Shown here: positions 17,602 through 50,300 of the stretch, in pieces
Numbering within the stretch: position 1 is the stretch's first letter
Layout: the number at the start of each line of letters is the position of its first letter
Assembly: GCA_052426225.1 (NCBI GenBank)
Contig: JBNJNM010000012.1
Coordinates: 1,302,001 to 1,366,000, forward strand
DNA length: 64,000 nucleotides
Source: Zancudomyces culisetae HAW-14-8
Lineage: Eukaryota; Fungi; Kickxellomycota
Direction: 5' to 3'
Position numbers and translations under genes: made by a program
Notes under the pieces: generated by a model
The model's input: only the letters and a program-made list of their open reading frames with translations
Database searches by the model: none
What the model was told of the DNA's origin: nothing

Positions 17602-19455
17602 TGCAAAGGTTACACAGCCAATTACTAAGTTACTCAGAAAGCAAAGTGTATGGAGCTGGGATACAGAGCAGGAAGCAGCATTGAGACAGCTAAAGGAGCT
17701 AATGGCATCGGCGCCTGTACTTGGACATGCCGATTGGACTAGAGAATTTGTTATTACGACGGATGCTTCAATCGTAGGAATAGGAGCGATACTGACTCAA
17801 TTCACAGACGAAGGCAAAAAGGTGATAGAATACGCAAGCAGAAGGACTACAAAATCTGAAAAAAACTACGCCATTAGCCATCTTGAGGGGCTCGCGGTCA
17901 TCTGGGCCGTGAAAAAGTTTAAGTTCTACGTTTATGGAAAAAAATTTAGAATTAGAACGGATCATAAGTCCTTGCTGCAGTTATTCCATGGTTCGGAAAT
18001 CACAGGAAGAGTTGCCCGCTGGGCAATGTATCTCCGTAACTTTGACTACGAAATAGAACATCTACCAGGAGCCGTTAATCCGGCAGATGCACTTTCCCGG
18101 CTACTGCACCAGGAAGAGTCGGAAAAAACTATTAACGAACTGAAGGTGTATGCTAAGGACAGACTAGAGTATGAGGATATTACATCCTATATTGTTGATG
18201 GGACACTGCCCAATCAAGCTGATGAGGAGTACAAGAGGAGGCTTAAGAGGGGGGCAAAACATTATATAGTCACGGATGGTAAGTTATTGAAAGTAGTAAA
18301 TAACACAACTAAAGTAGTATTACACTCAGAAAACAGCAGAGCTCTGATAAGATCAATTCATGAGGAGGGTCATGAAGGGATCGAAAACACTTGGAATAAA
18401 GTCACTCAAAAATACACAGGCAGGAACTTGTATAAGGAAGTTAAACAGATAGTGGAAAGTTGCAGGACACGCCAGCATTATAAAGGGGCAAGATCGCGAC
18501 GACACCCGTTGGTTCCGATATTATCTTCAAAGCCATTCCAAATTGTCGGAATTGACGCAGTCGGTCCCATCTCACCGGTCTCGGCTAATGGTAACAGGTT
18601 CATTCTGACGGCAATCGATCTGTTTACTAAATGACCTATTGCAGCTGCCGTTCCAAACATCCAGAGTAATACGATTGTAAACTTTTTAGTAAACGAAGTG
18701 GTAGCATACTATGGTGTTCCACAACAGCTGATAAGCGATAGAGGACCGAGTTTTTTATCTGAAGCAGCAACACAGGTATATGAGTGGCTTGGTATAAATC
18801 ATACCCCGACGACCGCCTACCGACCCCAAAGTAATGGGCAGGTAAGCAACTGAATCAGACATTAGTTACCGTGCTTATAAAGCAGTGTCGGAATGATAAG
18901 CAAAGTTGGGATTCATATTTGTGAAAAACCTTGCTAGTAATCAGAACATTACGGAATAAATCAACTGGATTATCACCAGCTCAGATGCTATACGGTATCG
19001 ATTTGGAGTTACCGTCTACATGGAATTATAATGGAGACATAGATAATATCGAGGAATTGATAATTAGTAGAGTGAAGCAGATTAAAGACGAGTTGCCACA
19101 GTTGAGAGAAATAGGACTACGAAGATCAGTAAAGTCTAAACAGATGCAAGCGGAAAGATATAATGTGAAGGTAAAACTATTTAGGTTCGAACCGGGTGAA
19201 TTTGTTTTGAAACTAGTGGATATGGAACGATCGAAACTGGAGCATTATTGGGAAGGCCCGTATAGAGTGGAAAGAGTACTGAGTAAAGGGACATATATCA
19301 TAAACGATAATGAAGGCAACCGGGAGCTCGTTCATGGAGATATGTTGAAGAAGTATATATCGAGTAACCACATGATCCCTGATGTAACAACCACTCTGAA
19401 GACAAAACTCAAACGGTTCAAGCAGCCAAGGCGCGATGAGGGCATCCGCGCTTAA
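15017..19455 (+). pseudogene. gag-pol of A (single ORF; integrase broken)
   Basis: CYYCNEQGHRRYEC, VDTGA, FVDD, TDAS and GPY motifs; TGA at 18632 and 18922, and a 1-bp deletion near 18845. Confidence 0.92.
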
Positions 19456-19806
19456 GGGGGGGAATCTGTCGTATAGCAGATACGACATTTTTTTGATTAG
19501 TTTTTTTTTGCTGGCAAATTTTTCTAATCGCTAAAAAATAGCATAAAAATTATAAAATTTGATAAAGTAGATAAAAAATTAGTTAGTTTTAGTTTTTTAG
19601 TTTTTTTAAGTTTTTTTTAGTCAAAAAATAAAGAATTAGTAATAGAATAAACAAAAAGATATACAAAATATAAGTACAAAACTATATATAATATACACTG
19701 TTTTCAATACATAGTAATATTTAATATACAAGAATAGCATAGTGTTGAAAGTTAGGATATAAGTTTTATTATAAAAATATATTTTAAACCCAAAAAATAT
19801 AACACT

Positions 19807-20202
19807 TGTCATATAAAATTGGCGTGATTACCCCTGGACTACAATAAAGGTAATACCAGTTTCTCGTTTATTATTTATTAGTTATTATTTACTTGTGAGA
19901 AGATTGAACTTTTCTCCCGAAGAGGGTTTTATCTGACTTCTCTGATAATAGGTTCTTTTGTTATCAGTTTTTTATTGAGATAAATTTTAGATAGAAGTTA
20001 ATATTTTTATATATTTTATATATTTTATAAGAGAAATAAAAAAAAAGTATAATATAATAAAAGACTGTCCACGCCTCCATAATTGTTAGTTACGCAACAA
20101 GATAGTTTAAACTCTCTCTTGAAAGTAAATAGCAAGGTGTTTAGACACTTATTACCCATAACGGGTATAAAATATTTTAAATAATAAATAAAATATTTTA
20201 CA
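19807..20202 (+). repeat. Solo LTR C (family of the element H LTR)
   Basis: TGTCATAT..AAATTG start and internal blocks shared with 34059-34456; begins 2 nt after LTR A. Confidence 0.8.
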
Positions 20203-20203
20203 C

Positions 20204-21450
20204 TGTCGCAATAAGCCGAATTGTAATGCAAATTCGAATAGTGTACAAGAAATTTTGTTGTACACTCATTGCGGAATGCCAATTTTTATAATTTTTATTG
20301 TCGTTTAAATTTTTGTTCAAATTAATTTCGACTCAGCATGAAATAAATTCTACATGCTGAGTCCATTCAATAATGATGATTCTAGTACGAAATATGTTTT
20401 CATACTGAATATCAAATAATTTTAATGATTATGTGTTCCCACACATAATCTTAATTGCACGTATGCTGCAATTATGAAACAAAACTATTAGTATACTTAA
20501 CAGCATAATAATAGTGTATAGTTAATTTATTATATTGAAAAACTAGGTTAGCATTTAAGTTTTATATCATATATATAATTGATATAGTAGTCTATTAGGT
20601 AACTTTTCCATGTCCTACTTTACGGATTAAATAGTATAGTTAATAAACTCAATAAAACAAACTTTAAAAGTATATACATATAATAAATAACCAAACATCA
20701 TGAACTATTTCTTTTATACCAAGAGTAAATCCAAGAGGGATTCTGAAACTAGCTCCAGCCTGAGCACGGCTAGTAGCATGGACCAAGAGACTGGGGTTTT
20801 AAGTCCTCGGACTCTTGGGGAGTTGACAGAAAGTGTCCGTCAACTCCAAATCCGTAGGAGCCCAGAACCAATGTCCGTGAGCAGTATCTCACCGACATTG
20901 TATAGGGGAAACAGCTCACCCGAGCACCTTATTATGCACATCACACTACGGGGTAGTGGTGCATCTTCATCAAGTGGTCATACCCGAACTGGTATGACAC
21001 ATGATGAACTTAATAATCATGGTTACACGAATTATGATTATTACGACAACACTAATGTCGCATCAATGAGCGACAGGATGTACATCACACGGGTGCTTTC
21101 GTGTGATGTGCAAAGACTTACACGGTGTTTTTCACCTATGAGGTTTTTCCCGTGTAAATCTCTATTAATTTTTATATTAATTTTATATTAATTTTATCAA
21201 TGTTTCTTATATAGTTATAATATAGTTAGTTTATTATAAAATATGAGAGATCAGATATAAGGCTAATTATCTGACCTACTGAATTCAGTATCTTTTTTTT
21301 TTAGTTTATAATCAAAAATAAACACATTAAGCCATTGAATCTGGGTCCTACCGTCTTCAGGTAGTTATTAGATTATAGTATAAACTTTCAAAATACTTGT
21401 TAAGGCGGTAAAGTCGGGTAAAACCGACAAGGAAAAATTAAATTCCGTCA
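20204..21450 (+). mobile_element. Long LTR-like unit D carrying a small ORF
   Basis: TGTCGCA start; homologous to 34461.. and 46298-47332; right end approximate. Confidence 0.65.
20700..21191 (+). CDS. Ser-rich protein of unknown function inside unit D
   Basis: 163-aa ORF; a 58-codon core is conserved with 46424..47020, mostly with synonymous differences. Confidence 0.6.
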   Translation: MNYFFYTKSKSKRDSETSSSLSTASSMDQETGVLSPRTLGELTESVRQLQIRRSPEPMSVSSISPTLYRGNSSPEHLIMHITLRGSGASSSSGHTRTGMTHDELNNHGYTNYDYYDNTNVASMSDRMYITRVLSCDVQRLTRCFSPMRFFPCKSLLIFILILY

Positions 21451-21452: not shown

Positions 21453-24400
21453 TGTCGTATAATAATACGATGGGAACTAAAATTGATTGAGATTTATCAT
21501 CTCAATTTTCATCTATCTAGTTATTGATTTTTATAGGTTATCTTTATTTTTAGATTGGACCTTTTTCCCCTTGTGGTTTTTGTCCAACGATTATTAGTTA
21601 GTTAGTTTAAGTTATAGTTTCATAGTTTTATATCAGAAATCGGGGGTAAAAGGAATCCCCCACTTCATTCAAAATAAATTTTATCTTTCAACAAAATAAT
21701 ATGGTGTCTAGCTACATTATATACTATAAGTACAACATTATAAATAAATATACAATATAGTAGTAGTTTTAAATACATTAATAATCAGAATAAGAATAAA
21801 CAATAGGGAAAGCTGTTTATACGACAGTGGCGCTCCCAGCTAGGCCATAGCTAGAAAAACTAAATAAAAACTATATAAAGAACTTGAGTACATTGTGAGA
21901 ATGAACACCATACACTTATTTGAGGCAGCTTCTGGTGAGGATCCTGAGGAATGGATCGCAGACTTTTGTCTAGTAGCTAAATTAAATAAGTGGGATAAAG
22001 ATGATTGGATAGACTTTATTCAATTGTATTTAGGCAAAATTGAGAAGTTATGGTATAAGAAGCATAAGACGGCATTTAAGGATTGGGCCGACTTCAAAAC
22101 GCAGTTCACTACACAGTACCAAGTTAAGGAACAGAGATTTCAGTATTATGAAAAGCTCAAAAATATTGACCAAAATTCCTTTGAAACAGTTGAGGAATTT
22201 GAGTACAACTTGGAAAATATATTGGATAAAGCGGGGATAAACGAGGACGTAGCCAAGATAGACTGGTTACTGAGCGCACTTAATACAGATTCAAGAAGTA
22301 TAGTCAAAGAATTCAGACTTAAAACCTGGAAGAGTATTATAGAGAAGTTAAAGAAAGTTCAAGAAGAGGCTGTCCACAAGCAAGTACAAGTGGATAATAC
22401 AAGTAAAGTTCAAAAACCCAGCATAACCACAAAAGGGAAATCCATAAAGCAGTTGACCAATGAAAATGTAGGGTATGAACAGATGGTCAAAAAGATGGAT
22501 GAGTGGAGTCTGAACATTATTTCAAAAGTTGATGAGACTATTGAAAAAAGATTAAAAAATACAAATGTCTTTCCTTACAAACGGGAAAACCCCAGAGTTG
22601 TCAAATGTTATTATTGTCATCAGTTAGGTCACCGAAAGTATGAATGCAATAAACTCAAAGAACAGCAGGCTCAGGAACAAAGTAAAATAGATAAGGACGT
22701 AAGTTTTTTAGAAGTTTGCAGCTCACAACAAAATGACAATGAAGTACTAGCAGTACAAAGAACACCCCGCACACAGGATACCAAAAAGCCGTACAACAAG
22801 ACTAAGCCGTTACAGCTGAGACAAAAAGGGTACACACCCATAACAGAATATGACAGGGCTATAGAGAGACAAGATATAGTTATGGAAACAGGTGAACCCG
22901 AAGTAGTTTCAAGAATAGGAAACACAACAGCTGGCCTTGACTCGCGTAGAAGAGAGACATCAAAAACTGGAGAAAAGTTAGAAGATAGTGTTAAGCAAGT
23001 AGAGAAACCTAGGGCAAAGGGTGTACTAGGAATGGCAGAAGGAATACCGCCCTTTTCGTTAAAAGAACAGTTATCAAGTTGGTGTCCCAACATATCTTTT
23101 CCACAGTTGATGGATGTTTCACCTAGTTTAAATAACGAGATGATAAGTTTGTGTAGACGTAGTAAAAAAGCTGAATTAAATGAAATAAGATTTGACATAC
23201 CTAGAGTTACAAATTGCAAGATTAGAATATCAATTTTTGAATCAAACTTTTGGGCAGTAGTAGACACAGGTGCAGCGTGCTCAGTAGCTGCACCGGGATT
23301 ATTAGAACAGTGGGGGCTCATAGCGGAAGATGAAGGTGATCAGATTATAATTACGGCCGATGGAAATAAGCACTATTCGTTAGGTAGAATAATGGATGTC
23401 CCATTAATGATAGGCAGGTACAAGTTCACAGTCAATCTGACAGTAATGGATAGAAACGACAACACGCTCATTTTAGGTACAGACTGGTTGTTAGAACACA
23501 AGGCCCAATTAAATCTGAAGACATCGGAAATGAAACTGCCAGTTGAACAGTTTGAGTTGATAGTACCTTTACATACTTCAGCTCCCTCGTTGCCCTCTAG
23601 CAAAAATACATCCGAGCTTTATTATGTTCTTAAAGAAGAAGTAGCAGAAATAAATGGGCTGCAGCGCTACAATGATATGCGGTTTGACTAAATTAAACAA
23701 GATAATAGTGATATCTTTGCCGATGACATTGAGCAATTGACTCAGACTGAGGAAGCTGAACATAGAATATTGTTGAATGACGAAACCCCAGTAAAGCTTA
23801 AACCATACAGAATTCCGCACCATTTGTATAGCAAGGTACGCGACGAACTCAAGAAAATGGAAGAGAAAGGAATAATTTCCCAGTGTGTGTCCGAATGGTG
23901 TGCACCAGTTGTTACCATTTGGAAAAAAAATGGCAAACTGCGTGTGTGCACTGATTATAGGAGGCTGAATTTACAAACAAAGAAGGATTCCTATCCGCTG
24001 CCGACGATGGAGGATATTTTCATGGCATTGTCTGGTTCATCAGTGTTTTCAACTCTAGACGCTCTTAGCGGATTTTGGCAAATCCGCATGGCCAAAGAGG
24101 ATAGGTTGAAAACAGCGTTCTCTATTCCGGGTACCGGGACGTACTGCTATAATGTCATGCCATTCGGTTTGACAAACAGTCCCGCGTCTTTTCAACGTAT
24201 GATGGAGAAGGTTCTATCTCCTGTGCTTTGGAAGTTTGCTGTAGTCTTTGTGGATGATATTATCATCTACTCAGAAAATATTGAAAGTCATTTATTGCAT
24301 CTCCAGGAAATATTTGATTTATTGCGAAAAAGTAAAGTACAACTACATTCTGACAAGTGATTCATTGGAATGAAGGAGTTGGAATACTTGGGACATGTCG

Positions 24401-26764
24401 TGTCGCCACAAGGTCTAAGGACAAGTAAGGCTAAGGTGGAATCAATAGAAAAAGAAAAATTACCTACCACCGTAAAGGAGTTACAGTCCTTTTTAGGGCT
24501 AATTGGTTTTTATAGAAAATACGTAAATGGGTTTTCTAAAATTGTTGCGCCATTGTTAAAACTGTTAAAAAAAGGAACAGAATGGAAATGGACACCTGAA
24601 TGTGGACAAGCAGTTACAAAAATCAAACATGAATTAACGAATGCACCAACCTTGGCACATCCTGACTGGAGCCGAGAATTTATAGTAACTACTGATGCAT
24701 CAGTTACAGGCATTGGAGGTATATTGTCACAGAGTTACGATGAAGGAGAAAGACCAATTTGTTATGTGAGCCGAATCACAAACCAACATGAAAGAAATTA
24801 TTCTATTTCTCATTTGGAAGGTCTTGCAGTTGTCTGGAGTATCAAGAAGTTAAAGTATTATTTATGGGGTAAGCACTTTACCGTGCGTACTGACCATAAG
24901 TCATTAATTCAACTTTTCAATTCAACAGAAATTACAGGTAGAGTAGCCCGTTGGGCTATGATACTTCGTAACTACGATTATACTATTGTCCATTGCGAAG
25001 GAAAAAGCAACCCCGCAGACGCCTTATCACGTTTAGGACCAGAGATTAGCAAATCAAATAGAGATAAGATTGATATATTTACTTTGGATTTTTTATACTA
25101 TCAAGCTATTATTAACTATCTGAATGACTATAGTTACCCACGAAATGCAGATGAAGGGTTTAGAAACAAGTTAAGAAATAGAGCTAAAAAATACAGAGTG
25201 AAGGATGGAAAGCTAGTAAGGATTATCAAAGGGAATATAAAAGAGGTGCTACATGAAAAAAATATAAGGGAAACTATAGAAGCAATTCATGAAGAGAATC
25301 ACGATGGCATACAGAACACTTGGAGGAGAACCAAGGAAAAATATACAGGTGAAGGTCTTTTTGACATGGCGAGAACAGTAGTAGGACAATGTCATACTTG
25401 TCAAGTCTATAAAGGAGGAAGGGAAAAAAGGAATCCCCTTCACCCTATTCAGGCAAATAGGCCATTCCAGATTTTTGGTCTAGACGCAGTTGGTCCCATA
25501 AGACCAATTTCAAAGAAGGGAAATAGATTTATTTTAACTGGCATAGATTATATGACAAAGTGGCCAGTAGCGCAGGCAGTAGAGAACATTCAGTCAACGA
25601 CCATAATCAACTTTATCATAACACACATTGTGCAACATTTTGGAGTTCCAGATCAGATAATTACCGATCGAGGAGCAGGTTTTGTAAGTGAGTTTACTTC
25701 TAAAGTATATGAATATCTTAACATAAAGCATACACCTACGACCTCGTACCGTCCACAGAGCAATGGACAGGTCGAGCGTCTTAATCAAACACTTAAAAAC
25801 GTATTGGTAAAGCAATGTCATCGAGATAAAGGCAACTGGGATCTGCATCTCTGGAAAACGTTATTAGCTGTAAGAACAATGCGAAATCGGACGACGTCAT
25901 ATTCACCAGCAGAATTATTGTATGGGGTCAGATTACTCACTCCTACGATTTGGAATCCTCCTGCTGAACCTAGTGATATTGAGTTAGCAATTAAAGAAAG
26001 AATTGAATTCATCAAAACGGACATACCAGAAATGAGATCAGCAGGTTATGCAAATAGTATTGCCTCAAAAGAAAAAGAGAAGAAGACATATGATAAAGGA
26101 GTTAGAGAAATGTATTTCAAGGAGGGAGATATCGTGTTAAAGCTTACTGAGCAACCGCAACCAAAGTTAGAGCAGATATGGGAAGGCCCATATCATGTAC
26201 AAAGGAGACTAAGATTAGGTGCTTACGTTATTGCGGACAGCGAAGGAAATCGTGATATCGTAAACGGAGATATGTTAAAGCTCTATAGTCAGAAACAATA
26301 CATGCTTCCTGAAGTAAGTAACACTCTGAGATCCAAGTTACAACGCTTTAGAGACACTAGGCCGGCCAGTCCAATCTGGAGGAGGGGTTCTGTCGTATAA
26401 TAATACGATGGGAACTAAAATTGATTGAGATTTATCATCTCAATTTTCATCTATCTAGTTATTGATTTTTATAGGTTATCTTTATTTTTAGATTGGACCT
26501 TTTTCCCCTTGTGGTTTTTGTCCAACGATTATTAGTTAGTTAGTTTAAGTTATAGTTTCATAGTTTTATATCAGAAATCGGGGGTAAAAGGAATCCCCCA
26601 CTTCATTCAAAATAAATTTTATCTTTCAACAAAATAATATGGTGTCTAGCTACATTATATACTATAAGTACAACATTATAAATAAATATACAATATAGTA
26701 GTAGTTTTAAATACATTAATAATCAGAATAAGAATAAACAATAGGGAAAGCTGTTTATTCGACA
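21453..26764 (+). mobile_element. Ty3/Gypsy element B, full length; LTRs 21453-21826 and 26391-26764; TSD CACT
   Basis: 374-bp LTRs (one mismatch seen); PBS TGGCGCTCCCAGCTAGG at 21828; PPT GGAGGAGGGG; ends 9 nt before tRNA-Phe. Confidence 0.95.
21901..26400 (+). pseudogene. gag-pol of B with two in-frame stops
   Basis: Three same-frame ORFs (to 23691, 24360, 26400) with CCHC, VDTGA, FVDD, TDAS, HHCC, DDE and WEGPY motifs. Confidence 0.92.
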
Positions 26765-26773: not shown

Positions 26774-26846
26774 GGGAGCTTAGCTCAGCTGGGAGAGCGT
26801 GCGACTGAAGATCGTACGGTCCCGAGTTCAATCCTCGGAGCTCCCA
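26774..26846 (+). tRNA. tRNA-Phe(GAA)
   Basis: GGGAGCT/AGCTCCC acceptor stem; TGCGA-CTGAAGA-TCGTA anticodon arm; TTCAA T-loop. Confidence 0.95.
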
Positions 26847-26848
26847 TT

Positions 26849-26930
26849 GGTATCATGGCCGAGCGGTCTAAGGCGCCGCACTCAAGTTGCGGTCTCGAAA
26901 GAGGCGTGAGTTCGAATCTCACTGATACCA
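26849..26930 (+). tRNA. tRNA-Leu(CAA)
   Basis: GGTATCA/TGATACC acceptor stem; CCGCA-CTCAAGT-TGCGG anticodon arm; long variable arm; followed by TTTT. Confidence 0.95.
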
Positions 26931-29663: not shown

Positions 29664-29665
29664 TA

Positions 29666-35130: not shown

Positions 35131-35135
35131 GCGAC

Positions 35136-35594: not shown

Positions 35595-36222
35595 CGATGT
35601 TGAATTCGTTTTCATTTTTTAGTACTAGTCCAATAGGATTTTCCCAAAAAACTTCCACTAATATCAATCACGGTTCCCTAGAAGGGTGGTTATTACTGAC
35701 ACAGGATTTACCATTTCTAGCCAGTTAACCACTATCTATAAAACCCCCTCAGAAAGAACACAACTGGACAATTTCCACAATTTTTGGTAAAAATAATTTT
35801 ATTTAAAAGAATTCCTCCCAAAACCTGGAAAATATAGCCAAAATGGCCCTTTCCTTACACTAAAAAAATAGTATTACGCCTCTCTATATATGTTTATTTT
35901 TACTTTTAGTGTGGTTTTGGTCGGATTTACAAATTTTTCAATTTATACTAATAATTTACTAATAAAATTGATTAAAAATAAATCCACTAATAAAGTATAA
36001 AATCGATTCGACTAAAAAATAAATCGATTTGTACTATTAAATTGGCTGTAAAATTGACAAAAATTTATGACATGGTCATAATTTTTGTACTCTAAATTGA
36101 ATTGCGCAGGAAACAATTTTTTCAAAATTGATTTCTCTGCTATTTTGCTGCAATGAAAGCGGTAAATTTAAGTTGATGCTTTTGCATACAACAATGTCCC
36201 CCCTCCAGCTTTCGCGCCGTGA

Positions 36223-37509: not shown

Positions 37510-37526
37510 TAGTTCCTCATACTTTG

Positions 37527-38465
37527 TTATCTTGTTTTCCTTTCTATCTCTATGCAGTTAATTTCTTGTTTTTGGTCCTTCTGCCTCTTGTAGCACGCTG
37601 CGGCCTCATGCCCTGGCCTTTTGCAGTATGTACATTCCACTTTCTTGAACGGTCTTCTTGATTGTGGAGCAGACTTTTCAGAGTAATTTGGTCTCTTTTC
37701 TAATCTAGCTAGGAGATTAAGTGAAAGCTCGTCAAACTTTTTAATCAACGCCTCGTACATATCTGGACCCTCATTAGATTTATGTACCTTCATCACCTTC
37801 CTACTAGTGCTTTTTGGTTTTTCTGATGTTTCCCTGACAGTAGGTAATATTTTCTCGACATCCTCTTCTGCCTGGATTATTGCTATGGCAGATTTGACAT
37901 CCTTAACTTTGGCTTTTAAAATTTGCCTTTGATACTTGGGGTTAAGAGCGTCTACAAAAAACTTAAGTCTGATCCGTTCGTCTTTAATATCGACTGTTGA
38001 GACCAGTTTGCTGAACTCCGTCTCAAAATCTTCAAAGTCGAGGTAGTCACTTTGTTTAAGGCTTTGCAGTTGATTCCACGCTCGTGCCTCTCTGTCTTTA
38101 CCTTCAAACTTTTCCAGGAATTCCTCACGAACCTTTTTCCATTTTTCTAGTTTAGACTTATTTATCTTGTACCATCGAAGGTCTTTCCCCGTTAAAAACA
38201 ATTCTAAGAAATCAATCTTGTCTTTTTCCATCCAGCTGTTGATCCTAGCCATTAGCTCATACCTATCGAGCCATTCTTCCACGTTTGTAGTAGTGTTGCT
38301 ATCGAACATTGCTACATCTGGAATTCCTCTGTTGAACGTAAAGTTCATATTTAGAGGTATTCGGTCAGTTGTTGGTTCAGGAGCGCTCGTCTCCTGTACT
38401 TCGACCTCCTCTGATTCATCATCAGTAGTATCCTCTCTCAACTTTTCTGCTCTTTTACTAAACAT
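37527..38465 (-). CDS. Gag with CCHC knuckle
   Basis: VEEWL..W..FL.G..WY pattern; CTYCKRPGHEAAAC. Confidence 0.88.
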   Translation of the reverse strand: MFSKRAEKLREDTTDDESEEVEVQETSAPEPTTDRIPLNMNFTFNRGIPDVAMFDSNTTTNVEEWLDRYELMARINSWMEKDKIDFLELFLTGKDLRWYKINKSKLEKWKKVREEFLEKFEGKDREARAWNQLQSLKQSDYLDFEDFETEFSKLVSTVDIKDERIRLKFFVDALNPKYQRQILKAKVKDVKSAIAIIQAEEDVEKILPTVRETSEKPKSTSRKVMKVHKSNEGPDMYEALIKKFDELSLNLLARLEKRPNYSEKSAPQSRRPFKKVECTYCKRPGHEAAACYKRQKDQKQEINCIEIERKTR

Positions 38466-41356
38466 TTTGATTTTGTTGTTAAACTTTAAATAATTGATAA
38501 TTTTTTGTTATTTTGTAATTTTATAAATTTTATATTTTTATGTTTTTATGTTTAATTTTTTAACAATATTTTTATTATATATTATTTTATTATAATAATT
38601 ATTTTTTTTTTTTTTTTATTTTTTTTTTTTTTTTATTTTTTTTTTTGTATTATTTATTGTTGTAGTTTAGTATTGTTTAGAAAACTTGTTAATCCGTTGA
38701 AAGATGGACAAACTTTTAGATTTATAGGATTGAATTTCGATTTTGTTTGATTTGGAGTCTGATTTGATTTTTAGTATTTCGACTCAATTAATTTTAATTT
38801 TTAATTTCTTTGCTGGTTTTGATTAGTTTTACTTTGTTTTAATTTGGACTGTGTCCCTGCTTTTTATCTGCTATGTTATTCTGACTTGTATTCATAAATT
38901 TAATTCCCAATTTAAGTTACCAAAAGTTCAGTCAGTTTTGAAGTGATGAACAGTTTGGGTTTGATGTTTTACACAACTCCCGAACGGTTTGGAAGGGAGG
39001 ACCTCCCCGCCCAAAAGATTGGACATCGGATTTGTTTTACCCCCATTTCATATTTCCACACTAGATCTTTCGAACGTTGGAGGGATTTAATCTAGTGTAA
39101 TAAAAGATTATTGAATATAATCTTTTCAGTATGTTTCGGTTCCGAATAATATTAACTAGAAAGTAGAAACTAGTTAAATGATATCTACCGTTCTGAAGAC
39201 GCGCCGCTCTAACAGAACTCATAAGACGACAATATTGTGCATCTTACCTTGGTACCACTATTGGGTTTGGTTGAAATAAATAATAAATTCTACCTCTCCC
39301 TAGCCCCTTGGGAATGTTGAACTTACATCACCCAAATGACTGTAGAATACCTAGGAATTGACCTCCATGGTATCCTTTACTCTTGGAGTGCTTTGGCTAC
39401 TCCGTAATTGGTTATACTAAGACCCCCATCTAACTTATCTATCCTTATTTTGATAGAATGGTTAGGCCGGACAAAGAGAGTAAACCAGTTCTGCTCCTGT
39501 CCCATTAATGACGTAGGTTGATTCCTGCAGGGTTATCACCTCGTAAATATTTATCTCACCTTGTTAGCTACTTAAGGTGTAGAAAGGTCCCCAGAACTGA
39601 AAGTACTCTTACCACGTAGGTTGGAGGGTTTGGAATACTTCCGTTTGTTCTACCGAACCCAAGGTGTCCCCTTTTTGGGTACTACCATTTACTGACTTAC
39701 TGGGTAAACTTTTTAGTTTCCCGATATTATTAGGCTGATCTTGTTTAAATACTACTACCAAACCTAATACCAATTTAGTTCCATATTTTACGGAACTTTA
39801 CCACAAAATTCCTCCACCAGTTTCATTCACTCGGTTTTGGAATCGAGTATTTTATTACTCGTATAGTTTCTGGGTTAACTGGTAGGGTAGAAATTATTTC
39901 CCCAGTTATTTCCTTACTTAAAACCAATTAAAGAAAAAATTATTCCTTTAAAACCACCCGAGAAGTCTGATTCAGTTTCCCTAAATCTTGAAAAAGGATT
40001 TGGATAACTAACTTCAACTTCTCAAAACTTGGGAGTGTATCTGGAGATAGATACAGGATCTCCCTATTTAAAGTGTGAAGTTTATTTCTACCTTTAAACT
40101 TCTTACACTTTTACTACTGGAGTTCAACTCCAGGTAGTGTCCCAGCAAAACTGTGGCCTAGAATAAGCTTGCATATAGCTCGCTTAAACTTACCAAGTGA
40201 CTTTAGTAGGTTGGTTAACTCTTACCTTCCCACTGTCACTGGTAGCTTTTCTCCACTTTAAGGATGTTATTCTTAAAGTTAGCTACAATGTTGCCGGTCT
40301 AGTAACCTATGGTCGGGCTCCTAGACTCGGTGTAGTAAGAAAAAATTAGGATTTTTACATCCCATTATCCTCATTACTACTAGTGGCTTCTACTAAGACT
40401 AAATGGCATTGCATTTAGTCCCTAGACGCCGGTGATATGGTGTAAAACCCACCGCAGAAATCCCCAGTACTTCTCAAAGAAGTCCGTCTCATTTCTGTTT
40501 TGAGCCCACCTTTGGTGACTTGTGTACATGTATTTTTAGGTTACTTACACATAATTTTGCTTTTCAGCAGTAAACCCCCAGTATCCATCTTTCTTCTCCC
40601 AAGTATTGGAAATTCTCCGTACAGCTAGCATTAACGAAAATTAACTTTCTTTAGCTATCACCGTATCTAGGAGATTTCAATATTTGGGGAATCCAGACGA
40701 ACCCGTCTCGTTTCCGCTTCCAACCAAAAATATGCTTATCGGCCTAAAAACCCATAAACATACCACCAACACCTGGGAAGTATCCAAAAGTATGCGACAT
40801 AACGCACATTTTGCTTCAACTCCCGCAGGTAACACAGCATTTTAAGCTGTTCTGGGAAAAGTTCCCAAAGACATTTGTTGAATTTAACTGTTTGGAAATG
40901 TTCTATTAAACTTAATTAATATCCCAAGTCCCAATTTGTTAAATTCCCCAAAAGCCTAAAAAGAAAAGGTCGGGTAATGTGGGAAATTCAATTACATTTA
41001 GGCTAAAATGTAAATGAAACCCGAAAAAGTATTGAGAAAAATCTTAAAGGGAAAAATGTATTTAAAGCCAATGTTCCTAGCCCCACTGAAAGTGTTTCGC
41101 ATTTACCAGCGCGAGTCCCTAAAAGGGCTTTCGTGGTTACCTTACCTGGTCCGGTGGTTCAGAGAATTTATTCCTTATTTAAAAGGAACAAACCTCCTAC
41201 TAGCCCACATTGGCCCCAGATGGTGTAAGGTCCAACTCGTCTCGTAAATGGCTTCTAGGCGACATAGCCGAAGCTTTTACGGCAAATTTTTGGTCATTAG
41301 AAAGAAAATCTTTCTGACCAAAAATTTAACTTTTCTCCCAAATTTTCCTCATACCG

Positions 41357-41374
41357 TTCCCGGCAGAGCCCCCA
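41357..41374 (-). promoter_or_regulatory. PBS of K (tRNA-Pro-like)
   Basis: TGGGGGCTCTGCCGGGAA, 2 nt after the 5' LTR. Confidence 0.75.
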
Positions 41375-41980
41375 TTTGTTGAATTCGTTTTCATTTTTTA
41401 GTACTAGTCCAATAGGATTTTCCCAAAAAACTTCCACTAATATCAATCACGGTTCCCTAGAAGGGTGGTTATTACTGACACAGGATTTACCATTTCTAGC
41501 CAGTTAACCACTATCTATAAAACCCCCTCAGAAAGAACACAACTGGACAATTTCCACAATTTTTGGTAAAAATAATTTTATTTAAAAGAATTCCTCCCAA
41601 AACCTGGAAAATATAGCCAAAATGGCCCTTTCCTTACACTAAAAAAATAGTATTACGCCTCTCTATATATGTTTATTTTTACTTTTAGTGTGGTTTTGGT
41701 CGGATTTACAAATTTTTCAATTTATACTAATAATTTACTAATAAAATTGATTAAAAATAAATCCACTAATAAAGTATAAAATCGATTCGACTAAAAAATA
41801 AATCGATTTGTACTATTAAATTGGCTGTAAAATTGACAAAAATTTATGACATGGTCATAATTTTTGTACTCTAAATTGAATTGCGCAGGAAACAATTTTT
41901 TCAAAATTGATTTCTCTGCTATTTTGCTGCAATGAAAGCGGTAAATTTAAGTTGATGCTTTTGCATACAACAACGACACA

Positions 41981-42062
41981 GTCAGTGTGTCCGAGCGGTT
42001 AAGGAGATAGACTTGAAATCTATTGGGCTATGCCCGCACAGGTTCAAATCCTGTCGCTGACG
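41981..42062 (+). tRNA. tRNA-Ser(TGA)
   Basis: GTCAGTG/CGCTGAC acceptor stem; ATAGA-CTTGAAA-TCTAT anticodon arm; long variable arm. Confidence 0.95.
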
Positions 42063-42065
42063 AAA

Positions 42066-42136
42066 GCGTAGATGGTTTAGTGGTATAATTGCCGCCTGCC
42101 ACGCGGCAGACCCGGGTTCGATTCCCGGTCTACGCA
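42066..42136 (+). tRNA. tRNA-Gly(GCC)
   Basis: GCGTAGA/TCTACGC acceptor stem; GCCGC-CTGCCAC-GCGGC anticodon arm; GGTTCGATTCC. Confidence 0.95.
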
Positions 42137-43964: not shown

Positions 43965-43994
43965 TATTACACAAGAAATTTATTTTATCAACAC

Positions 43995-44378
43995 TGTCGT
44001 ATGTTTTAAAACTTTTATTATAATTTATATACTACAGTACGACGAGGCTGAGTATATATTAATTTTGGCTCTGTACTCTTTTATAGTCTTTTAGTATAAA
44101 TTGTTTTATTTGATAATATATAAATGCTATGATTTTGAGTGAATTTCGAACAAAAATCCTTAGAATCTTGTTTCGTCGTATTTAAAGGTTTTTTCCTAAA
44201 ATAGTTTATACTAATATGAAAGTATTTAATATAAAACATAGTAATAAAATATAAAATATAGACAACGTTAAACCACTAATTGTAGCAAAAACCACAATGG
44301 TGATAAGGCCACTTTAGGACAATGGTTCAACGTTGGTCCTTTCTTAGCGTGTGTTTAAGATTATAAACACACACGACA
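43995..44378 (-). repeat. Solo LTR L1, TSD ACAC
   Basis: TGTCGT...ACGACA with ACAC on both sides; homologous to L4; strand inferred from the U-rich stem-loop. Confidence 0.8.
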
Positions 44379-44385
44379 ACACAGT

Positions 44386-44805
44386 TGTGCTAAGAAATTT
44401 CACTTTGTTTTTTGTTTGATCTGAAGATATTTTTTATTTAAAACAAAATTGGACCTATTAAATACTTTTACACCATTATTGAATACTATGAAATTGCCTA
44501 TATAAATACTATAAATACTATCAGATTCTCAAAATGTATAAAGTTGATTAAATGACATTTTGTTCATCTATTGAGATTTGATATTTAATTAATTAATATG
44601 ATACATCGATATTGGATGATTCACATATTAATTAATTAATATATTCTTGATCAAAATGCAATTAATAGGCTAGTTAAAAGTTAGTATAACTAAATTAAAT
44701 TAATACAAAAAGTTTAAAATGATATAATAATAATAATTAAACTCGTTAGGATTCAGTAGGAAATAAACCATATGGAAAAAAGCCTGCTGAATCCCGTATA
44801 CTACA
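44386..44805 (-). repeat. Solo LTR L2
   Basis: TGT...TACA unit between short AC-rich spacers; carries the U-rich stem-loop near one end. Confidence 0.65.
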
Positions 44806-44810
44806 ACACA

Positions 44811-45136
44811 TGTCGTATAGAAATACGATTAGAAGGATAAGGGGAATTAGTCCCCGGTTTTATTAAAGTTTATTTTTAGTTATATTTATATGTTTAGATT
44901 GGACCTTTTTCCCCTTGTGGTTTTGTCCAATAGTTTTTTATTAGTTAGTTATTTTTGTTTAATGAGCCAAATATTTTAGGGGTTAAATGAACTCCCACTT
45001 GGAAGAAAAAATAAAAACATCTTTATTCACAATTAGAAAAACAGTCTATACTAGTATAAGTTTATTATTTGTATCAAAAATAATACGATATAGTAAATAT
45101 AATTAAAATATATTCCAATACTTTTTATATATCACA
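44811..45136 (+). repeat. Solo LTR L3 (B-related)
   Basis: TGTCGTATA..ATACGAT start; TTAGATTGGACCTTTTTCCCCTTGTGG shared with LTR B. Confidence 0.8.
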
Positions 45137-45137
45137 T

Positions 45138-45555
45138 TGTCGTAGTATATGAAATTTTATTATATAATTTTTGTATACCACAGTACGACAAATCTGAATA
45201 TACTATAAATCTTTGGTTCAGAACACTAGTACTAGCTTTCTTATAATATTTTTTATGATGTATATATTTTAATAGTAATAGATATACTTATATAAACGCT
45301 AAAACAAAAGGATGAAGTTCGAACACTGTTTCCGTGTTCGCATGTTTCGAATTATATAGGGTATTGTAAAATGATATAAGAATATTTAAAGTAAAATAAA
45401 TCTAACTACTTAAAGTATATATGTTTTGGGACAGATTGTAACAAAAACCACAATGGTGAAAAAGTTACGTATAACAATGCCCAACGTTTTATAATAATTA
45501 AAACTGTTATAAAAATAAATAATATTTAGGGTATGGTGTAAAATCGCACACGACA
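45138..45555 (-). repeat. Solo LTR L4 (L1-related)
   Basis: TGTCGTAG...CACACGACA; shares CAGTACGAC and AAAAACCACAATGGTG with L1. Confidence 0.8.
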
Positions 45556-45559
45556 CACT

Positions 45560-45827
45560 TGTTGTATGCCTATAATAGGCGAATCATTTCCATTATTAAA
45601 CGTGTTTTGTAATTTTTAGTTAGATTTTTTGTAGATTTTATTGTAGATTTTATTGTATAAAATTGAAATTTTTGGTAAACTATATAAATGTCCTCTTTTG
45701 CAAAATCATAATTTACTATAAAATATTCGCGGCATATAGTAAAAGGTAAGTAAAATGACCCGTCCCGTGTGTTATTTGGTGTAAAAAACACTAAATGGGA
45801 GCTTAAACATAACAACACACAAGAACA
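45560..45827. repeat. Solo LTR-like unit L5
   Basis: TGTTGTATG start (as in the K LTR terminus); ends in AACA at 45817 or 45827. Confidence 0.55.
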
Positions 45828-45829
45828 AC

Positions 45830-46292
45830 TGTTATATAGTGGCTAGAGCTACCTCTAGTCATTATATAATTTTAACTTACCAGTTATTCATATACTTTTA
45901 TATTAATATTTAGGTTTATCATTTAATATAAGATATTATTTATTATAGGTTATTTATTATATTATGTGTTGCCTAGTTTTTTTTATCCTTCTAGATTTTT
46001 TCTACAGCAACACTCTAGTTCAATTTAATATATATTTTATAGGATTTATATTTAATTAGTATAAAATTATTTCAGAATATTGTAATAGTCATTTTTAAAA
46101 TGTATAAATAAGGCTAGATATTCATTTAGTATTACATTATCAAATAAATATAATTTATTTAAATTTGGTCTATTTAATTTAGCATAGTTACTATAGTGAA
46201 AACAATTTTAAACATAGTACTTAGTATAGTATTCCTATCAAAATAAATATATAATAATCAATATAGCGAAGTAAACCTGTGTTTTGCTAACA
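45830..46292 (+). repeat. Solo LTR L6 (J-related), TSD CAAC
   Basis: TGTTATATAGTGGCTAG...CTAACA with CAAC on both sides. Confidence 0.85.
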
Positions 46293-46297
46293 CAACA

Positions 46298-47332
46298 TGT
46301 CGTATAAAATATTATACGTTATAGATTTCTCATCTATTGTAATTAATAGTGTTATTTTATTGGTTATTTATTTAATAGTTTTTGTAGTTGATTTTGTAGT
46401 ATTTAAATCAATGAAATTTTTAGTTAAATAAATTTGTCGTCTCTTAAATATAATAATAGTACATATAAATATTTATAAACAGTAACTATTAGCGGCCCGA
46501 CTCGTGTAGTGCTTGGAAGCCAATAGCTTTCAAGTAGGACGTAAAACATTTCTACTACACGACAAACATGTGTCGCATAATGTGAAGTATCACTACTTCC
46601 ATTAGCGCTACCATCACGTGTTATACCGGTTTTGGTACGATCACTGATGGTTGATGCACTTCTATTGCGTAATGCAATGTGCATCGAGGGGTGCTCGGGT
46701 GAGCTAATACCCCTGTACAGTGTCGGTGAAATTGTACTCACCGACATTTCTTCCGGGCTCCTACGGATCTGGAGTTGACGGACACTTTCTGTCAACTCAC
46801 CAAGGGTGCGGGGACTTAATACCCCTGCATCCTGATCCATGCTGCTGCCCCTGCTCATGCTGGTAGAAGTGTGTGACTCCCTCCTGGAGTCACATTCGGT
46901 TCCAATCCAACTGTTTAAAAACTTTATTGCTAATATATCTTTTGGTTTATATTTGATTTTATTTAATTGTTTTATTATAATATTCCGTATCGAGACATGG
47001 ATGAGGTTTTCATATGTCATCCATACGTCTCCTTAAATATATTATTCAAATTTTAAACCACTATTATAAACTAAATACTAAAATATGACTATTGTATAAT
47101 ATATTAATAATTTGTTTGTTATTAATGATAAATGTAAAATGCCTGGGATCATTTTACATTTTACATTCATCATTATTGAACTAGCTCAGTAAAAAATTGA
47201 TTGCATACTGAGCTCAAAATTATTTGAATTTATTTAAAAAAAGTAAACAAAAATGAATTTGCATTTTCGCACTGAGTGTACCATTTTCAGGCACATCCAC
47301 GTGCTATTGTACAAATTGTTAATAATGCGACA
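46298..47332 (-). mobile_element. Long LTR-like unit L7 (1035 bp) carrying a small ORF
   Basis: TGTCG...CGACA termini; homologous to units D and I. Confidence 0.8.
46424..47020 (-). CDS. Ser/Thr-rich protein of unknown function inside L7 (true start may be downstream)
   Basis: 198-aa ORF; conserved core MDQDAGVLSPRTLGELTESVRQLQIRRSPE..ISPTLYRG..SPEH. Confidence 0.6.
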   Translation of the reverse strand: MTYENLIHVSIRNIIIKQLNKIKYKPKDILAIKFLNSWIGTECDSRRESHTSTSMSRGSSMDQDAGVLSPRTLGELTESVRQLQIRRSPEEMSVSTISPTLYRGISSPEHPSMHIALRNRSASTISDRTKTGITRDGSANGSSDTSHYATHVCRVVEMFYVLLESYWLPSTTRVGPLIVTVYKYLYVLLLYLRDDKFI

Positions 47333-47333
47333 C

Positions 47334-50300
47334 TGTAGTATTTTTATTATTTGTATACTAGTGAATATTTATTTATTAAGTTTTATTATATATATAAAGT
47401 AATAAGATATTTAAATAATAGTTCGATGCTTCTTTCAAAAAGTGAAGAAAAGTTGGGGTTTATATAGTTTTTCTGTATGTCAACATTGTTTTGAAATCAC
47501 TAACATGTTCTTCTGTTGTTCAAACATGTTTTATTAATTGATGCGTTTTTTATCTTTTCTACCCCTACATTTCTTATCATGTTAACAGTTCACTCAAAAC
47601 AGCATCGTTACCCCGTGTTAACACACGTGGTTTGGTGTAATTTATCCGCATGATAAATTACACTGATTTATTTTGAAACATATAAATGCGTTAATAAAAT
47701 TAAATGATATTAATACTAATAATTAAACAAATGTATGGGGAAAAACCCAGTGGGAAAAAGTGCCCATACATATACTATAAAAACTAATACGACAGACCCC
47801 CTCCTAAACTTCGATCGTCCCGATTCGAATAAGGATGGTCTTTATATCTTCTTAATACTGGCTTTAATGTACTTGGTGCCACATCTGGAATCATATTTTC
47901 GGATTCTCTGTATTTCTTAAGTCTGTCACCATTCACTTGATCCAGGTTATTATCCTCATCTCTAATAATGTAAGTACCTTTGTCTAGTACTCTAACTATA
48001 GTATATGGACCTTCCCATATTGCTGAAAACTTTGAAGTGGGCATTTCCACTTTCTTAAGTACTTTATCTAGTAACTTGAACTTGAAAACTGTTACTTTCT
48101 TATTGTATCTTTGGACTTCATATTCCTTGTTTTTGATTATCTTTTGTGATGCTAGGTCTCTTAATACTGGGAGGTTGACTTCTACAAACTTAAGCCTTTC
48201 CTTAAATGCTTCTGTTTCATTTTCATTAGTAACTTCAGAAGTCCACGTAACTGGGGTTCTTATATTGCTCCCGTAAAGCATTTTGGACGGGGATACACCT
48301 AAAATTCGGTGTTTCATTGTGCGAGCAATCAACATTGCTCTCCATAGATATCTGTCCCAATTCTCTTTATCTTTCCAGCACAACTTAGATAGGACATTTT
48401 TTAACGTTTGGTTAAATCTTTCAACTTGGCCGTTGGACTGTGGGCGATAGGACGTAGTAGGATGATGTTCTATACCTACAAACTTATAGAACTCATCTGC
48501 AATTTCACTTATGAACCCGGACCCTCTATCAGATATCAACTTCCTAGGGACACCGTGATTCATAATAACATCATAGACTAAGAAGTGGACTATTGTTTCA
48601 GTTTGGATATTTTCTACTGCCTTTGAAATTGGCCATTTAGTATAGTAATCCATGGCTGTTATGATGTAACGGTTTCCATCCCTCGAAACTGGGGAAATGG
48701 GACCGATTGCATCTATACCTAAAATTTCGAATGGCTCTGAGGCTGTAATTGGAACCATTTCGTTTCTTCTCTTAGGTCCTCCTTTAAATCTTTGGCATAC
48801 CTCGCAAAAGTTAACTACTTTTTTTACTATCTCAAACGTATTTGGACCGGTGAACATTAACTTGACCTTCTCCCATGTATTGGAGATACCAGTATGGTCA
48901 TGATTATGCAAATCCTTGATCTTCAGATAAGCATTTTCTTCAGATAATACTTCTCTTAGCCCAAACTTTTTGCTATGTGCAAATAGTACTCCGTCTTTTA
49001 AAATGTACCTTGTGGCGTGTAAACGAATTTTTCTTTTTGCTTCTTCATCGGCTAAATTTGGATATGTGCGATCATTCAAGTATTGTTTTAGGGCATTATG
49101 TTTGTTAATTTCCATGCTGAATAATGTTATGCATTCTTCTTCAACCTCTTCCTGCTTGAATTCTTGTTTATCATTAGGTGTTGCCCTGGACAGATAGTCA
49201 GCAGGATTTAACGTGCCCTTTCTGTGACTTATTTCAAAATCATATTCTTTCAAAATGAGAGCCCATCTAGCTAGTCTCCCTGTAGCTTGCTTTGAGTGAA
49301 ATAAATTAATCAAGGCTGAATGATCTGTGACTATTTTAAATCTTTTTCCCCAGACGTAATTCCTGAAGTGATTAACAGCCCAGATAACTCCAAGTCCTTC
49401 TAGATGTGTTGCAGAGTAGTTTCTTTCTGGTTTAGTAAGTGACCTACTTGCGTACGCTATTGGATGCTCTTTGCCGCTTTCTGTTTGGCTAAGAATGGCG
49501 CCTAGTCCATTTGCAGAGGCATCAGTTGTTATCGTGAAGGTCTTGTCCCATGATGGGTGTCTCAGAATAGGGGCTTCTTTCAGTAGTGTCTTGAGTTTGT
49601 CTACTGCTTGTGTACATTCTTCACTCCAATGCCAAGTTACATCTTTTCTCAATAGTTGCGTTAAAGGTCTAGTAATTGATGCATAATTCTTGACAAACTT
49701 TCTGTAATATCCTGTCATACCCAGAAAACTTTGTACTTCCTTAACTGTAGTAGGATAGGAGAGTTTTGCTACTGCCTCAGTTTTTTTTGGATTTGTTTCT
49801 ATCCCTTCACCACTTATGATGTGGCCTAAATACTCAATGCGTTTCTGGGCGAAAACGCATTTAGCATAATTAAGCTTTATTTTTGCCTTTCTCAATAATT
49901 CAAAAACATTATCGAGGTCTTTTAAATGTATATCTAAATTTTCTGAAAAAACAACTATATCGTCAATAAAAACAACAACAGATTTCCATAAAACTGAGTC
50001 CAATACTTTTTCCATTAGCCTTTGGAATGTTGCGGGGCTATTAGAAAGGCCAAACGGCATTACGTTATAGCAATAAAGACCTTCGCCTGGAAAAGAGAAC
50101 GCTGTTTTTAACTTGTCCTTCTCACTGATTCGAACTTGCCAGAATCCTGACATTGCATCTAGTACGCTATAAACTGATGCACCTGCCAGAGCCTCAAATA
50201 TATCCTCTATTACCGGAAGGGGATAGTGATCTTTGCGTGTAACTGAATTTAAGCGTCTGTAATCTGAACAGATTCTTATTCCACCGTTTTTTTTCCATAC

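What the first reader, a model, noticed from the sequence alone, without database searches (positions are those of the whole stretch)
19366..47900. Conserved integrase C-terminal motif as a candidate Pol III-targeting determinant
Seen, after the GPY module in all five train elements: A MIPDVTTTLKTKLKRF, B MLPEVSNTLRSKLQRF, H MIPEVTNTLKSRLHRF, K MVPEVVPSSLRTKIRRY, F MIPDVAPSTLKPVLRRY. G has a chromodomain at this position instead and is not tRNA-linked. Known: Ty1, Ty3 and Ty5 targeting uses IN terminal motifs that bind host factors. Inference: MxP[DE]V..L[KR]..[LI].R[FY] tethers IN to TFIIIB, TFIIIC or Pol III.
Basis: partly seen in the sequence, partly recalled or inferred. Interest (0 to 1): 0.7.

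Follow-up and report, generated by a model that had tools for sequence, protein, structure and literature searches.

The report
Integrase tail of tRNA-targeting fungal retrotransposons
Five jumping genes, likely from an insect-gut fungus, end their integrase in the same short conserved tail, and three sit 8-9 bases in front of tRNA genes (the other two likely did before being pushed outward); the tail likely helps dock them on tRNA-gene transcription factors, but it also marks their whole family and that role is untested.

Summary
The motif is real: five hits in six frames, none in 100 shuffles, and synonymous codons vary, so selection acts on the protein. The spacer is 3-4 residues, not 2. 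B, K and F end 8-9 nt upstream of tRNA genes. A and H are 7 kb away, but chains of 4-bp target duplications place them at the same sites originally. The host is likely Zancudomyces culisetae or a close relative. The contrast with G carries little weight. All motif-bearing integrases form one clade (Harpellales, Rhizopus, Calcarisporiella; support 100/99), and G is a distant chromovirus. MxP[DE]V is clade-wide; the second half differs in Rhizopus-type elements. The second half lies where Ty3's Brf1-binding helix alpha0 lies, but it shows no sequence likeness, and neither structure model gives a helix. Verdict: an apparently undescribed Ty3-like, tRNA-start-site-targeting lineage. The tail is a fair but unproven tether candidate (about 0.4), with TFIIIB more likely than Pol III.

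The parts
19372..19419 (+). Motif in element A integrase tail (A's integrase frame is broken upstream by a stop and a frameshift)
26302..26349 (+). Motif in element B integrase tail
33969..34016 (+). Motif in element H integrase tail; the H C-terminal region is 99% identical to a protein named from Zancudomyces culisetae (P0001)
36232..36282 (-). Motif in element K integrase tail (ends 2 residues before the stop)
47844..47894 (-). Motif in element F integrase tail; F has one open Gag-Pol frame of 1510 codons
14550..19804 (+). Element A; LTRs 335/337 identical; left flank CTAA equals positions -7..-4 of the tRNA-Phe gene
19807..21450 (.). Three LTR-like units (X1 19807-20200, X2 20204-21048, X3 21056-21450) between A and B, with 2-7 nt spacers that match the tRNA-Phe upstream sequence; boundaries set by eye
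   Evidence: one contig of run X3 leaves the window at 21450 into a primer-binding-site-like sequence
21453..26764 (+). Element B; LTRs 373/374 identical; 4-bp TSD CACT; ends 9 nt upstream of tRNA-Phe, same orientation
26774..26930 (+). Tandem tRNA-Phe(GAA) and tRNA-Leu(CAA) genes, 2 nt apart
29675..34456 (+). Element H; no 5' LTR found (a DNA-transposon-like unit abuts it); 3' LTR 34059-34456 followed by CAGT, equal to positions -2..+2 of tRNA-Ser
34461..35594 (.). LTR-like units Y (34461-35052), end of an A-family LTR (35053-35130) and Z (35136-35594, TSD CGAC) between H and K; boundaries set by eye
35598..41972 (-). Element K; LTRs 596/596 identical; 4-bp TSD ACGA; 8 nt upstream of tRNA-Ser, divergent; gag runs directly into integrase with no protease, RT or RNase H
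41981..42136 (+). Tandem tRNA-Ser(TGA) and tRNA-Gly(GCC) genes, 3 nt apart
43995..47332 (.). Train of about eight LTR-like units upstream of F; boundaries set by eye
47334..52786 (-). Element F; LTRs 461/461 identical; 4-bp TSD ACAC; 8 nt upstream of tRNA-Val, divergent
52795..52868 (+). tRNA-Val(AAC) gene
5984..12586 (-). Element G, chromodomain-bearing comparison element; 5-bp TSD ATGAG; not next to a tRNA gene

Best explanation
The motif is a protein-level conserved integrase tail of one chromodomain-less Ty3/gypsy clade whose copies here sit at, or likely once sat at, tRNA gene starts, and it likely helps dock the integration complex on the tRNA-gene initiation factors, most likely TFIIIB. 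Shown: the motif, its codon-level conservation, its confinement to one clade among the integrases retrieved, and the 8-9 nt spacing of B, K and F. Inferred: A and H were pushed outward by later insertions at the same site. Inferred by analogy with Ty3: a long linker helix puts the SH3 domain at the edge of the intasome, MxP[DE]V anchors the tail on or near the SH3 barrel, and the basic and hydrophobic second half contacts Brf1/TBP or the DNA next to them. Integration then occurs at the transcription start with a 4-bp stagger. The tail would be one part of the tether, working with the SH3 domain, not necessarily all of it.
For: Position-specific insertion: 3 of 3 tRNA loci have a full element 8-9 nt upstream, in both orientations, and 15 of 17 train units have a left 4-mer that recurs within -12..+2 of the downstream tRNA 5' end (chance 0.03-0.085 each). 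This is Ty3-like rather than Ty1-like geometry (PMC5911963 sections 10-11). Selection is on the protein: invariant P, L and R use different codons. MxPEV columns are more conserved (0.78) than the SH3 domain (0.55) or residues after the motif (0.22) in 49 aligned sequences that I chose mostly for bearing the motif. A profile lines the second half up with Ty3 Gag-Pol 1459-1467, which is integrase 448-456, the alpha0 helix that contacts Brf1 (bioRxiv 2021.07.27.453949 section 6; numbering checked on the SH3 end, F1444 = 433). The model has a 43-residue CCD-CTD linker helix and matches the Ty3 intasome chains (7q5b, TM 0.63-0.64). The second half changes between Harpellales and Rhizopus-type elements while MxP[DE]V stays, as a host-facing surface might.
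Against: Motif and targeting are confounded by descent: one clade, with G far outside. No insertion site of any relative was obtained. The likeness to Ty3 alpha0 is positional only: my hand score of that stretch on the matrix is +0.4 bits for the second half (6 of 41 unrelated tails score higher; the four window members scored 20-25) and -3.5 for the first half. Neither model gives a helix: disordered, two short strands at pLDDT about 80. The hydrophobic moment is not above shuffles (12-28% reach it). G has a similar first half (LIPDR, 7.0 bits, against a top of 7.8 among 41 unrelated tails), and more distant integrases have P-x-V-x-I tails, which points to an older structural role. Eight other clade-diagnostic columns lie in the integrase core. 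DGLT-A targets through RNase H and the N-terminal extension.
Confidence: 0.42

Rival explanations
1. The tail is a structural or nucleic-acid-binding part of this clade's integrase (folding back on the SH3 barrel, bracing the intasome, or holding DNA or genomic RNA). Targeting is carried elsewhere: SH3 distal loop to TBP as in Ty3, or N-terminal extension or RNase H to TFIIIC as in DGLT-A.
For: The deeper-alignment model orders the tail at pLDDT about 80 with two short strands, and fold matches span barrel plus tail (model range to about 148-155; Z at most 7.7). A hydrophobic-proline after the SH3 occurs also in G and in P-x-V-x-I tails outside the clade. Net charge of the motif is +2 to +3. 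Precedents: Ty3 SH3-TBP contact and DGLT-A.
Against: The full-length model leaves the tail disordered. Many integrases outside the clade end within 10 residues of the SH3 or have unrelated tails, so no tail is needed for the general fold. The second half switches type between host lineages.
Confidence: 0.33
2. The basic second half is mainly a nuclear import signal for integrase or the intasome.
For: K/R-rich end (for example KLKRFK in A, KIRRYR in K). Ty3 integrase carries nuclear localisation signals (PMC6673722 passage). The Ty1 targeting domain lies in a bipartite NLS linker (PMC7459421 section headings), so the two roles can share a region.
Against: Conserved L, L/I and F/Y, and the MxP[DE]V half, are not required by a classical basic NLS (recalled consensus K-K/R-x-K/R is met cleanly only in A). 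Rhizopus-type second halves are not basic.
Confidence: 0.12
3. The tail binds the Pol III enzyme (AC40 or Rpc53/34/31), as the Ty1 targeting domain does.
For: A short linear C-terminal motif is sufficient for Ty1 targeting (PMC7459421 abstract).
Against: Ty1 inserts in a window of about 1 kb, and Pol III inhibits Ty3-type insertion in vitro (PMC5911963). Here insertions fall within about 10 nt of the tRNA 5' end.
Confidence: 0.06
4. The tail has no present function and is shared only by descent or by overlap with a DNA/RNA signal near the polypurine tract.
For: The motif lies 37-49 nt from the 3' LTR. Some clade members have a degenerate tail (P0092, P0093).
Against: Synonymous sites vary freely while residues are kept. 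MxP[DE]V persists at 33-39% integrase identity, and conservation drops right after the motif.
Confidence: 0.03

Closest known systems
Ty3 of Saccharomyces cerevisiae (Ty3/gypsy; intasome-TFIIIB structure 7Q5B)
   Same: Insertion at tRNA gene starts in either orientation; integrase with a long CCD-CTD linker helix and SH3 CTD; the tail's second half occupies the position of the Brf1-contacting alpha0 helix.
   Different: No chromodomain follows (the tail ends 2-19 residues after the motif); TSD 4 bp against 5 bp; elements end 8-9 nt from the mature tRNA, while Ty3 TSD ends are typically within 20 bp; 22% identity in the structural alignment; no significant sequence likeness to alpha0.
DGLT-A of Dictyostelium discoideum
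   Same: Chromodomain-less Ty3/gypsy element with a short integrase extension after GPY/F; inserts just upstream of tRNA genes.
   Different: 13-18 bp upstream; binds TFIIIC subunit Tfc4 through RNase H and the integrase N-terminal extension, and its CTD did not bind Tfc4. Its sequence was not compared here.
Ty1 targeting domain (and Ty5 targeting domain)
   Same: Short motif near the integrase C-terminus proposed as a host tether.
   Different: Ty1/copia superfamily; Ty1 binds Pol III subunit AC40 and inserts in a window of about 1 kb; Ty5 binds Sir4 (recalled). Sequence likeness was not tested.
Tj1 (Schizosaccharomyces japonicus), Tca8/beta (Candida albicans), Tyl3/Tyl6/Ylt1 (Yarrowia lipolytica)
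   Same: Fungal Ty3/gypsy elements listed as inserting 1-30 bp upstream of tRNA genes (Table 1 of PMC5911963).
   Different: All ascomycete yeasts; the lineage here is in Harpellales (Zoopagomycota). Their tails were not compared.
Annotated Pol proteins of Zancudomyces culisetae, Smittium culicis, Rhizopus microsporus, Calcarisporiella thermophila
   Same: Same integrase clade; MxP[DE]V kept; full motif in the Harpellales proteins.

Membership tests
Ty3/gypsy (Metaviridae) LTR retrotransposon | LTRs TG..CA, PBS, PPT, and domain order Gag-PR-RT-RH-IN | tested here: met
   F shows all domains in one frame; LTR pairs, TGG-type PBS and purine tracts for A, B, K, F. K lacks PR-RT-RH; H lacks a 5' LTR.
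Ty3/gypsy integrase with GPY/F module | GPY/F SH3-type C-terminal domain | tested here: met
   WEGPY invariant in 5 of 5; PF22938 weak hits in A, H, F; SH3-type barrel in the model.
Chromovirus | Chromodomain after the integrase GPY/F module | tested here: not met
   PF00385 in G only; the five end 2-19 residues after the motif.
Chromovirus | Grouping with chromoviral integrase in a tree | tested here: inconclusive
   The clade excludes G, the only chromovirus included, with support 100/99; no reference chromoviruses or RT tree were used.
Ty3-like position-specific Pol III targeting | Insertion within a few bases of the start of tRNA genes | tested here: met
   B, K, F at 9, 8, 8 nt from the mature 5' end; 15 of 17 train units share target 4-mers. 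Transcription starts are not mapped; one window only.
Ty3-like position-specific Pol III targeting | Integrase binds TFIIIB (TBP/Brf1) | not testable with these tools
   No host TBP, Brf1, Bdp1 or TFIIIC sequence was available (no genome held).
Ty3 alpha0 Brf1-binding helix | Same position after the SH3 domain | tested here: met
   Ungapped profile alignment to 7q5b 1450-1467, with paper numbering.
Ty3 alpha0 Brf1-binding helix | Sequence likeness beyond chance | tested here: not met
   Hand score +0.4 bits; 6 of 41 unrelated tails score higher. 7q5b is not among 16 hits at E up to 10 with the 5-sequence tail profile.
Ty3 alpha0 Brf1-binding helix | Helical conformation | tested here: inconclusive
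   Disordered in one model, short strands in the other; a helix formed only on binding is not excluded.
Integrase targeting domain (Ty1/Ty5 type) | Necessary and sufficient to direct insertion | not testable with these tools
   Needs mutagenesis and graft experiments.
Integrase targeting domain (Ty1/Ty5 type) | Present in targeted and absent from non-targeted close relatives | tested here: inconclusive
   Distribution mapped, but no insertion context for any relative.

The most novel reading that the evidence does not exclude
A chromodomain-less Ty3/gypsy clade spanning Harpellales and Mucoromycota evolved start-site targeting of tRNA genes independently of Ty3, by placing a 16-17 residue TFIIIB-binding peptide at the spot where Ty3 keeps its Brf1 staple helix. 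The MxP[DE]V half would be a fixed anchor and the second half would be retuned to each host's Brf1, giving a minimal, portable tRNA-start targeting tag.
Probability: 0.25. Interest if true: 0.72.

Novelty: new variant of a known kind. Interest (0 to 1): 0.47.

Why it matters
Position-specific tRNA targeting is documented for ascomycete yeasts and dictyostelids; my searches found no report for Harpellales or Zoopagomycota or for Rhizopus. Several diverged families here (integrases 45-61% identical, different LTRs and primer sites) use the same few bases, which implies an old and stable targeting system. If the tail is the tether, it would show that a short peptide can replace Ty3's vestigial chromodomain, and it would offer a small tag for steering integration to tRNA loci. 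If it is not, the lineage is still a new case for studying convergent Pol III targeting, with an intact element (F) to test.

Tried and rejected
No whole genome is held, so genome-wide correlation with tRNA distance was impossible. Scans for related loci gave only distant relatives: 9 loci in metagenomes, none with the motif in the translated stretch and none with a tRNA gene; none in viral contigs; 36 loci at 22-28% identity in prokaryote assemblies, not examined further. Laying contigs of runs X1-X6 gave thin, fragmentary cover and no usable LTR flanks. A two-copy fold of the CTD plus tail gave no answer (score 0.00, alignment not used); it is not evidence either way. No complex with TFIIIB, TFIIIC or Pol III was folded, because no host sequence was in hand and an archaeal stand-in was judged uninformative. 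Fold searches of the CTD model returned only generic SH3/Tudor/PWWP barrels (best Z 7.7, none at 8 or more); no chromodomain-like module for the tail was listed, which does not exclude one. Atlas searches gave unnamed clusters and SH3-type CTD families. The first tree run did not finish and used a looser labelling rule that I then changed; counts come. Alignment A7 was made for a with/without-motif comparison but not used, because Ty3 was not hit even with the motif. Rejected: a DNA/RNA cis-signal; homology to Ty3 alpha0; amphipathic helix as shown; G as an adequate negative control.
Full report
1. Observation. One hundred triplet shuffles of the window give none. Proline, leucine and arginine codons differ between elements while the residues stay, so selection acts on the protein. 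G has a Pfam chromodomain, a 5-bp TSD and no tRNA gene within 14 kb. It also has LIPDR in register with MIPEV, then a proline-rich linker, then the chromodomain.

2. Host and elements. No genome is held. The nearest integrases carry Zancudomyces culisetae names: H is 99% identical to P0001 over its C-terminal 159 residues and F is 100% identical to P0009 over 285 core columns. The window is therefore likely from this Harpellales insect-gut fungus or a very close relative. A, B, K and F have LTR pairs of 335/337, 373/374, 596/596 and 461/461 identity. F has one open Gag-Pol frame; A, B and H have breaks; K lacks protease, RT and RNase H.

3. Are all five tRNA-linked? B ends 9 nt before tRNA-Phe, K 8 nt before tRNA-Ser and F 8 nt before tRNA-Val, each with a 4-bp TSD; B is co-oriented, K and F are divergent. 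A and H are about 7 kb from a tRNA gene, separated from B and K by LTR-like units whose boundaries I set by eye. For 15 of 17 units in the three trains, the 4 bases on the left recur within -12..+2 of the downstream tRNA 5' end; a random non-coding 4-mer does so with probability 0.085, 0.029 and 0.043 for the three targets. ACA-rich LTR ends inflate some matches. The informative ones are A (CTAA at -7), X3 (CTAA at -7), Y (CAGT at -2, directly after H's LTR), Z (CGAC at -7), V4 (ACAT at -6) and Y2 (CATG at -5). The simplest reading, an inference, is repeated insertion 2-10 nt from the tRNA, each event pushing older ones outward. H's own TSD cannot be checked because no 5' LTR was found. Such tight geometry resembles Ty3 (1-4 bp from the start site, TFIIIB-dependent) and not Ty1 (about 1 kb window, Pol III-dependent) (PMC5911963).

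4. How far does the motif reach? One search used a profile with the motif and two used the integrase without it. Of 230 proteins (225 fetched, including near-copy cluster members, and 5 from the window), 139 covered core and SH3 end and were labelled: full motif 18, MxP[DE]V with a Rhizopus-type A-x-E-x-F-x-x-W end 16, first half only 5, P-x-V-x-I 20, short 10, other 70. On a tree of the core without the motif, all 18, all 16 and 4 of the 5 fall in one 47-row clade (FastTree support 97); 0 of the 92 rows outside have the full motif, and the one outside 'half' is a pattern artefact (P0163). With 51 rows that I picked, G added, IQ-TREE gives this clade 100/99 and puts G far away (at most 29% identity to any row). 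Named members come from Z. culisetae, Smittium culicis, Rhizopus microsporus and Calcarisporiella thermophila. Two full-motif rows (P0010, P0011) came only from the motif-containing search. So the motif is a clade trait, and five-versus-G is a single contrast. In 49 aligned tails, chosen mostly for bearing the motif, majority identity is 0.78 for MxPEV, 0.55 for the SH3 domain, 0.39 for the second half (0.46 without 12 Rhizopus-type rows) and 0.22 beyond. Eight other core columns are also clade-diagnostic.

5. Structure. The full integrase model (19 sequences) has a 43-residue CCD-CTD helix and leaves the tail below pLDDT 55; it matches foamy virus and Ty3 intasome chains. A CTD-only model (49 sequences) orders the tail at about 80, with short strands at I-P-E and H-R-F-K and no helix; fold searches give generic barrels. 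The two models disagree. The hydrophobic moment of the second half is within shuffled values.

6. Comparison with Ty3. A profile of the 49 sequences aligns without gaps through Ty3 Gag-Pol 1450-1467. With integrase starting at 1012 (checked: the paper's SH3 end 433 is F1444), the paper's alpha0 helix, residues 448-456, is 1459-1467 and coincides with the motif's second half. Alpha0 staples Ty3 integrase to Brf1, while the SH3 domain contacts TBP. Scored by hand on the matrix, that Ty3 stretch gets +0.4 bits (second half) and -3.5 (first half). Six of 41 unrelated tails, each given the best of nine registers, score higher on the second half; the four window members scored get 20-25. The match is positional, not a sign of homology. 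DGLT-A shows that a chromodomain-less element can target through RNase H and the integrase N-terminal extension, with no Tfc4 binding by its CTD.

7. Mechanism. Most likely (0.42, inferred): the tail is part of the tether to TFIIIB-bound start sites, MxP[DE]V anchoring and the second half facing the host factor. Close rival (0.33): a structural or nucleic-acid-binding tail with targeting elsewhere in Pol. Nuclear import (0.12), a Pol III enzyme tether (0.06) and no function (0.03) follow.

8. Literature seen. bioRxiv 10.1101/2021.07.27.453949: passages and section 6. PMC5911963: abstract, sections 10 and 11. PMC5006619, PMC6101501, PMC3248453, PMC6673722: passages. PMC7459421: abstract and section list. 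PMC4600332: search listing only. No supplements were read; those of PMC3248453 list Rhizopus elements and could bear on novelty. Searches for Harpellales, Zancudomyces, Rhizopus or Zoopagomycota with tRNA-targeting terms returned 0 papers; broader ones listed none on this lineage by title or abstract start. The library lacks most subscription journals, and Repbase was not searched. Earlier AI notes of this scan describe similar stacking at tRNA genes in other early-diverging fungi; I could not check them and do not count them as support.

9. Verdict. Observation confirmed with small corrections; interpretation plausible but unproven and confounded by descent. New variant of a known kind. Interest 0.47; 0.72 if the tail proves to be a portable TFIIIB tether (probability about 0.25).

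Noticed in passing
window 35598-41972 (-): Element K has identical 596-bp LTRs, about 2.9 kb without a long ORF after the 5' LTR, and gag running directly into an open integrase frame in another frame, with protease, RT and RNase H absent: likely a recently moved non-autonomous gag-integrase element.
   Followed up: partly
window 26774-26930 and 41981-42136: Two tandem tRNA gene pairs with 2- and 3-nt spacers (Phe-Leu, Ser-Gly) and a T-run only after the second gene; likely dicistronic units. Insertions lie only before the first gene.
   Followed up: no
window 45791-45805: A fragment matching the upstream bases and first nine bases of tRNA-Phe follows an LTR-like end inside the tRNA-Val train, perhaps the remnant of a former target gene or a recombination between trains.
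   Followed up: no
window 1-3821 and 13781-17601: Inverted duplication, 99.8% identical over at least 3821 bp, including the 5' part of A and its upstream flank; G lies in the spacer. Could be real or an assembly feature.
   Followed up: no
window 34457-34460 and 41979-41982: Unit Y's inferred target duplication CAGT overlaps the first two bases of the mature tRNA-Ser, yet the gene stays intact.
   Followed up: partly
window 27110-27501: Solo LTR with a 5-bp TSD (CTAAT) and ends like G's, 180 bp downstream of tRNA-Leu; a related LTR end abuts G at about 5980.
   Followed up: no
window 28106-29669 and 42354-43968: Two units with inverted terminal repeats of about 200 bp and degenerate transposase-like content, each within 1.2 kb downstream of a tRNA pair; likely Tc1/mariner-type (not tested).
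   Followed up: no
window 14887, 21827, 41376, 52325, 12173: A, B, K and F each have a different TGG-type primer binding site; G has none, as in self-priming chromoviruses (recalled).
   Followed up: no
window 34461-35053 and 46571-47332; 20204-21048: A 760-850 bp LTR-like unit family with a short internal ORF recurs in all three trains; two copies are 96% identical and in opposite orientation.
   Followed up: no
window 57244-60657 (+) and 60754-62496 (-): Host genes: a 1138-codon ORF with a weak PX domain hit, and a zinc-ribbon/RING-H2 protein with a Gln-rich repeat.
   Followed up: partly
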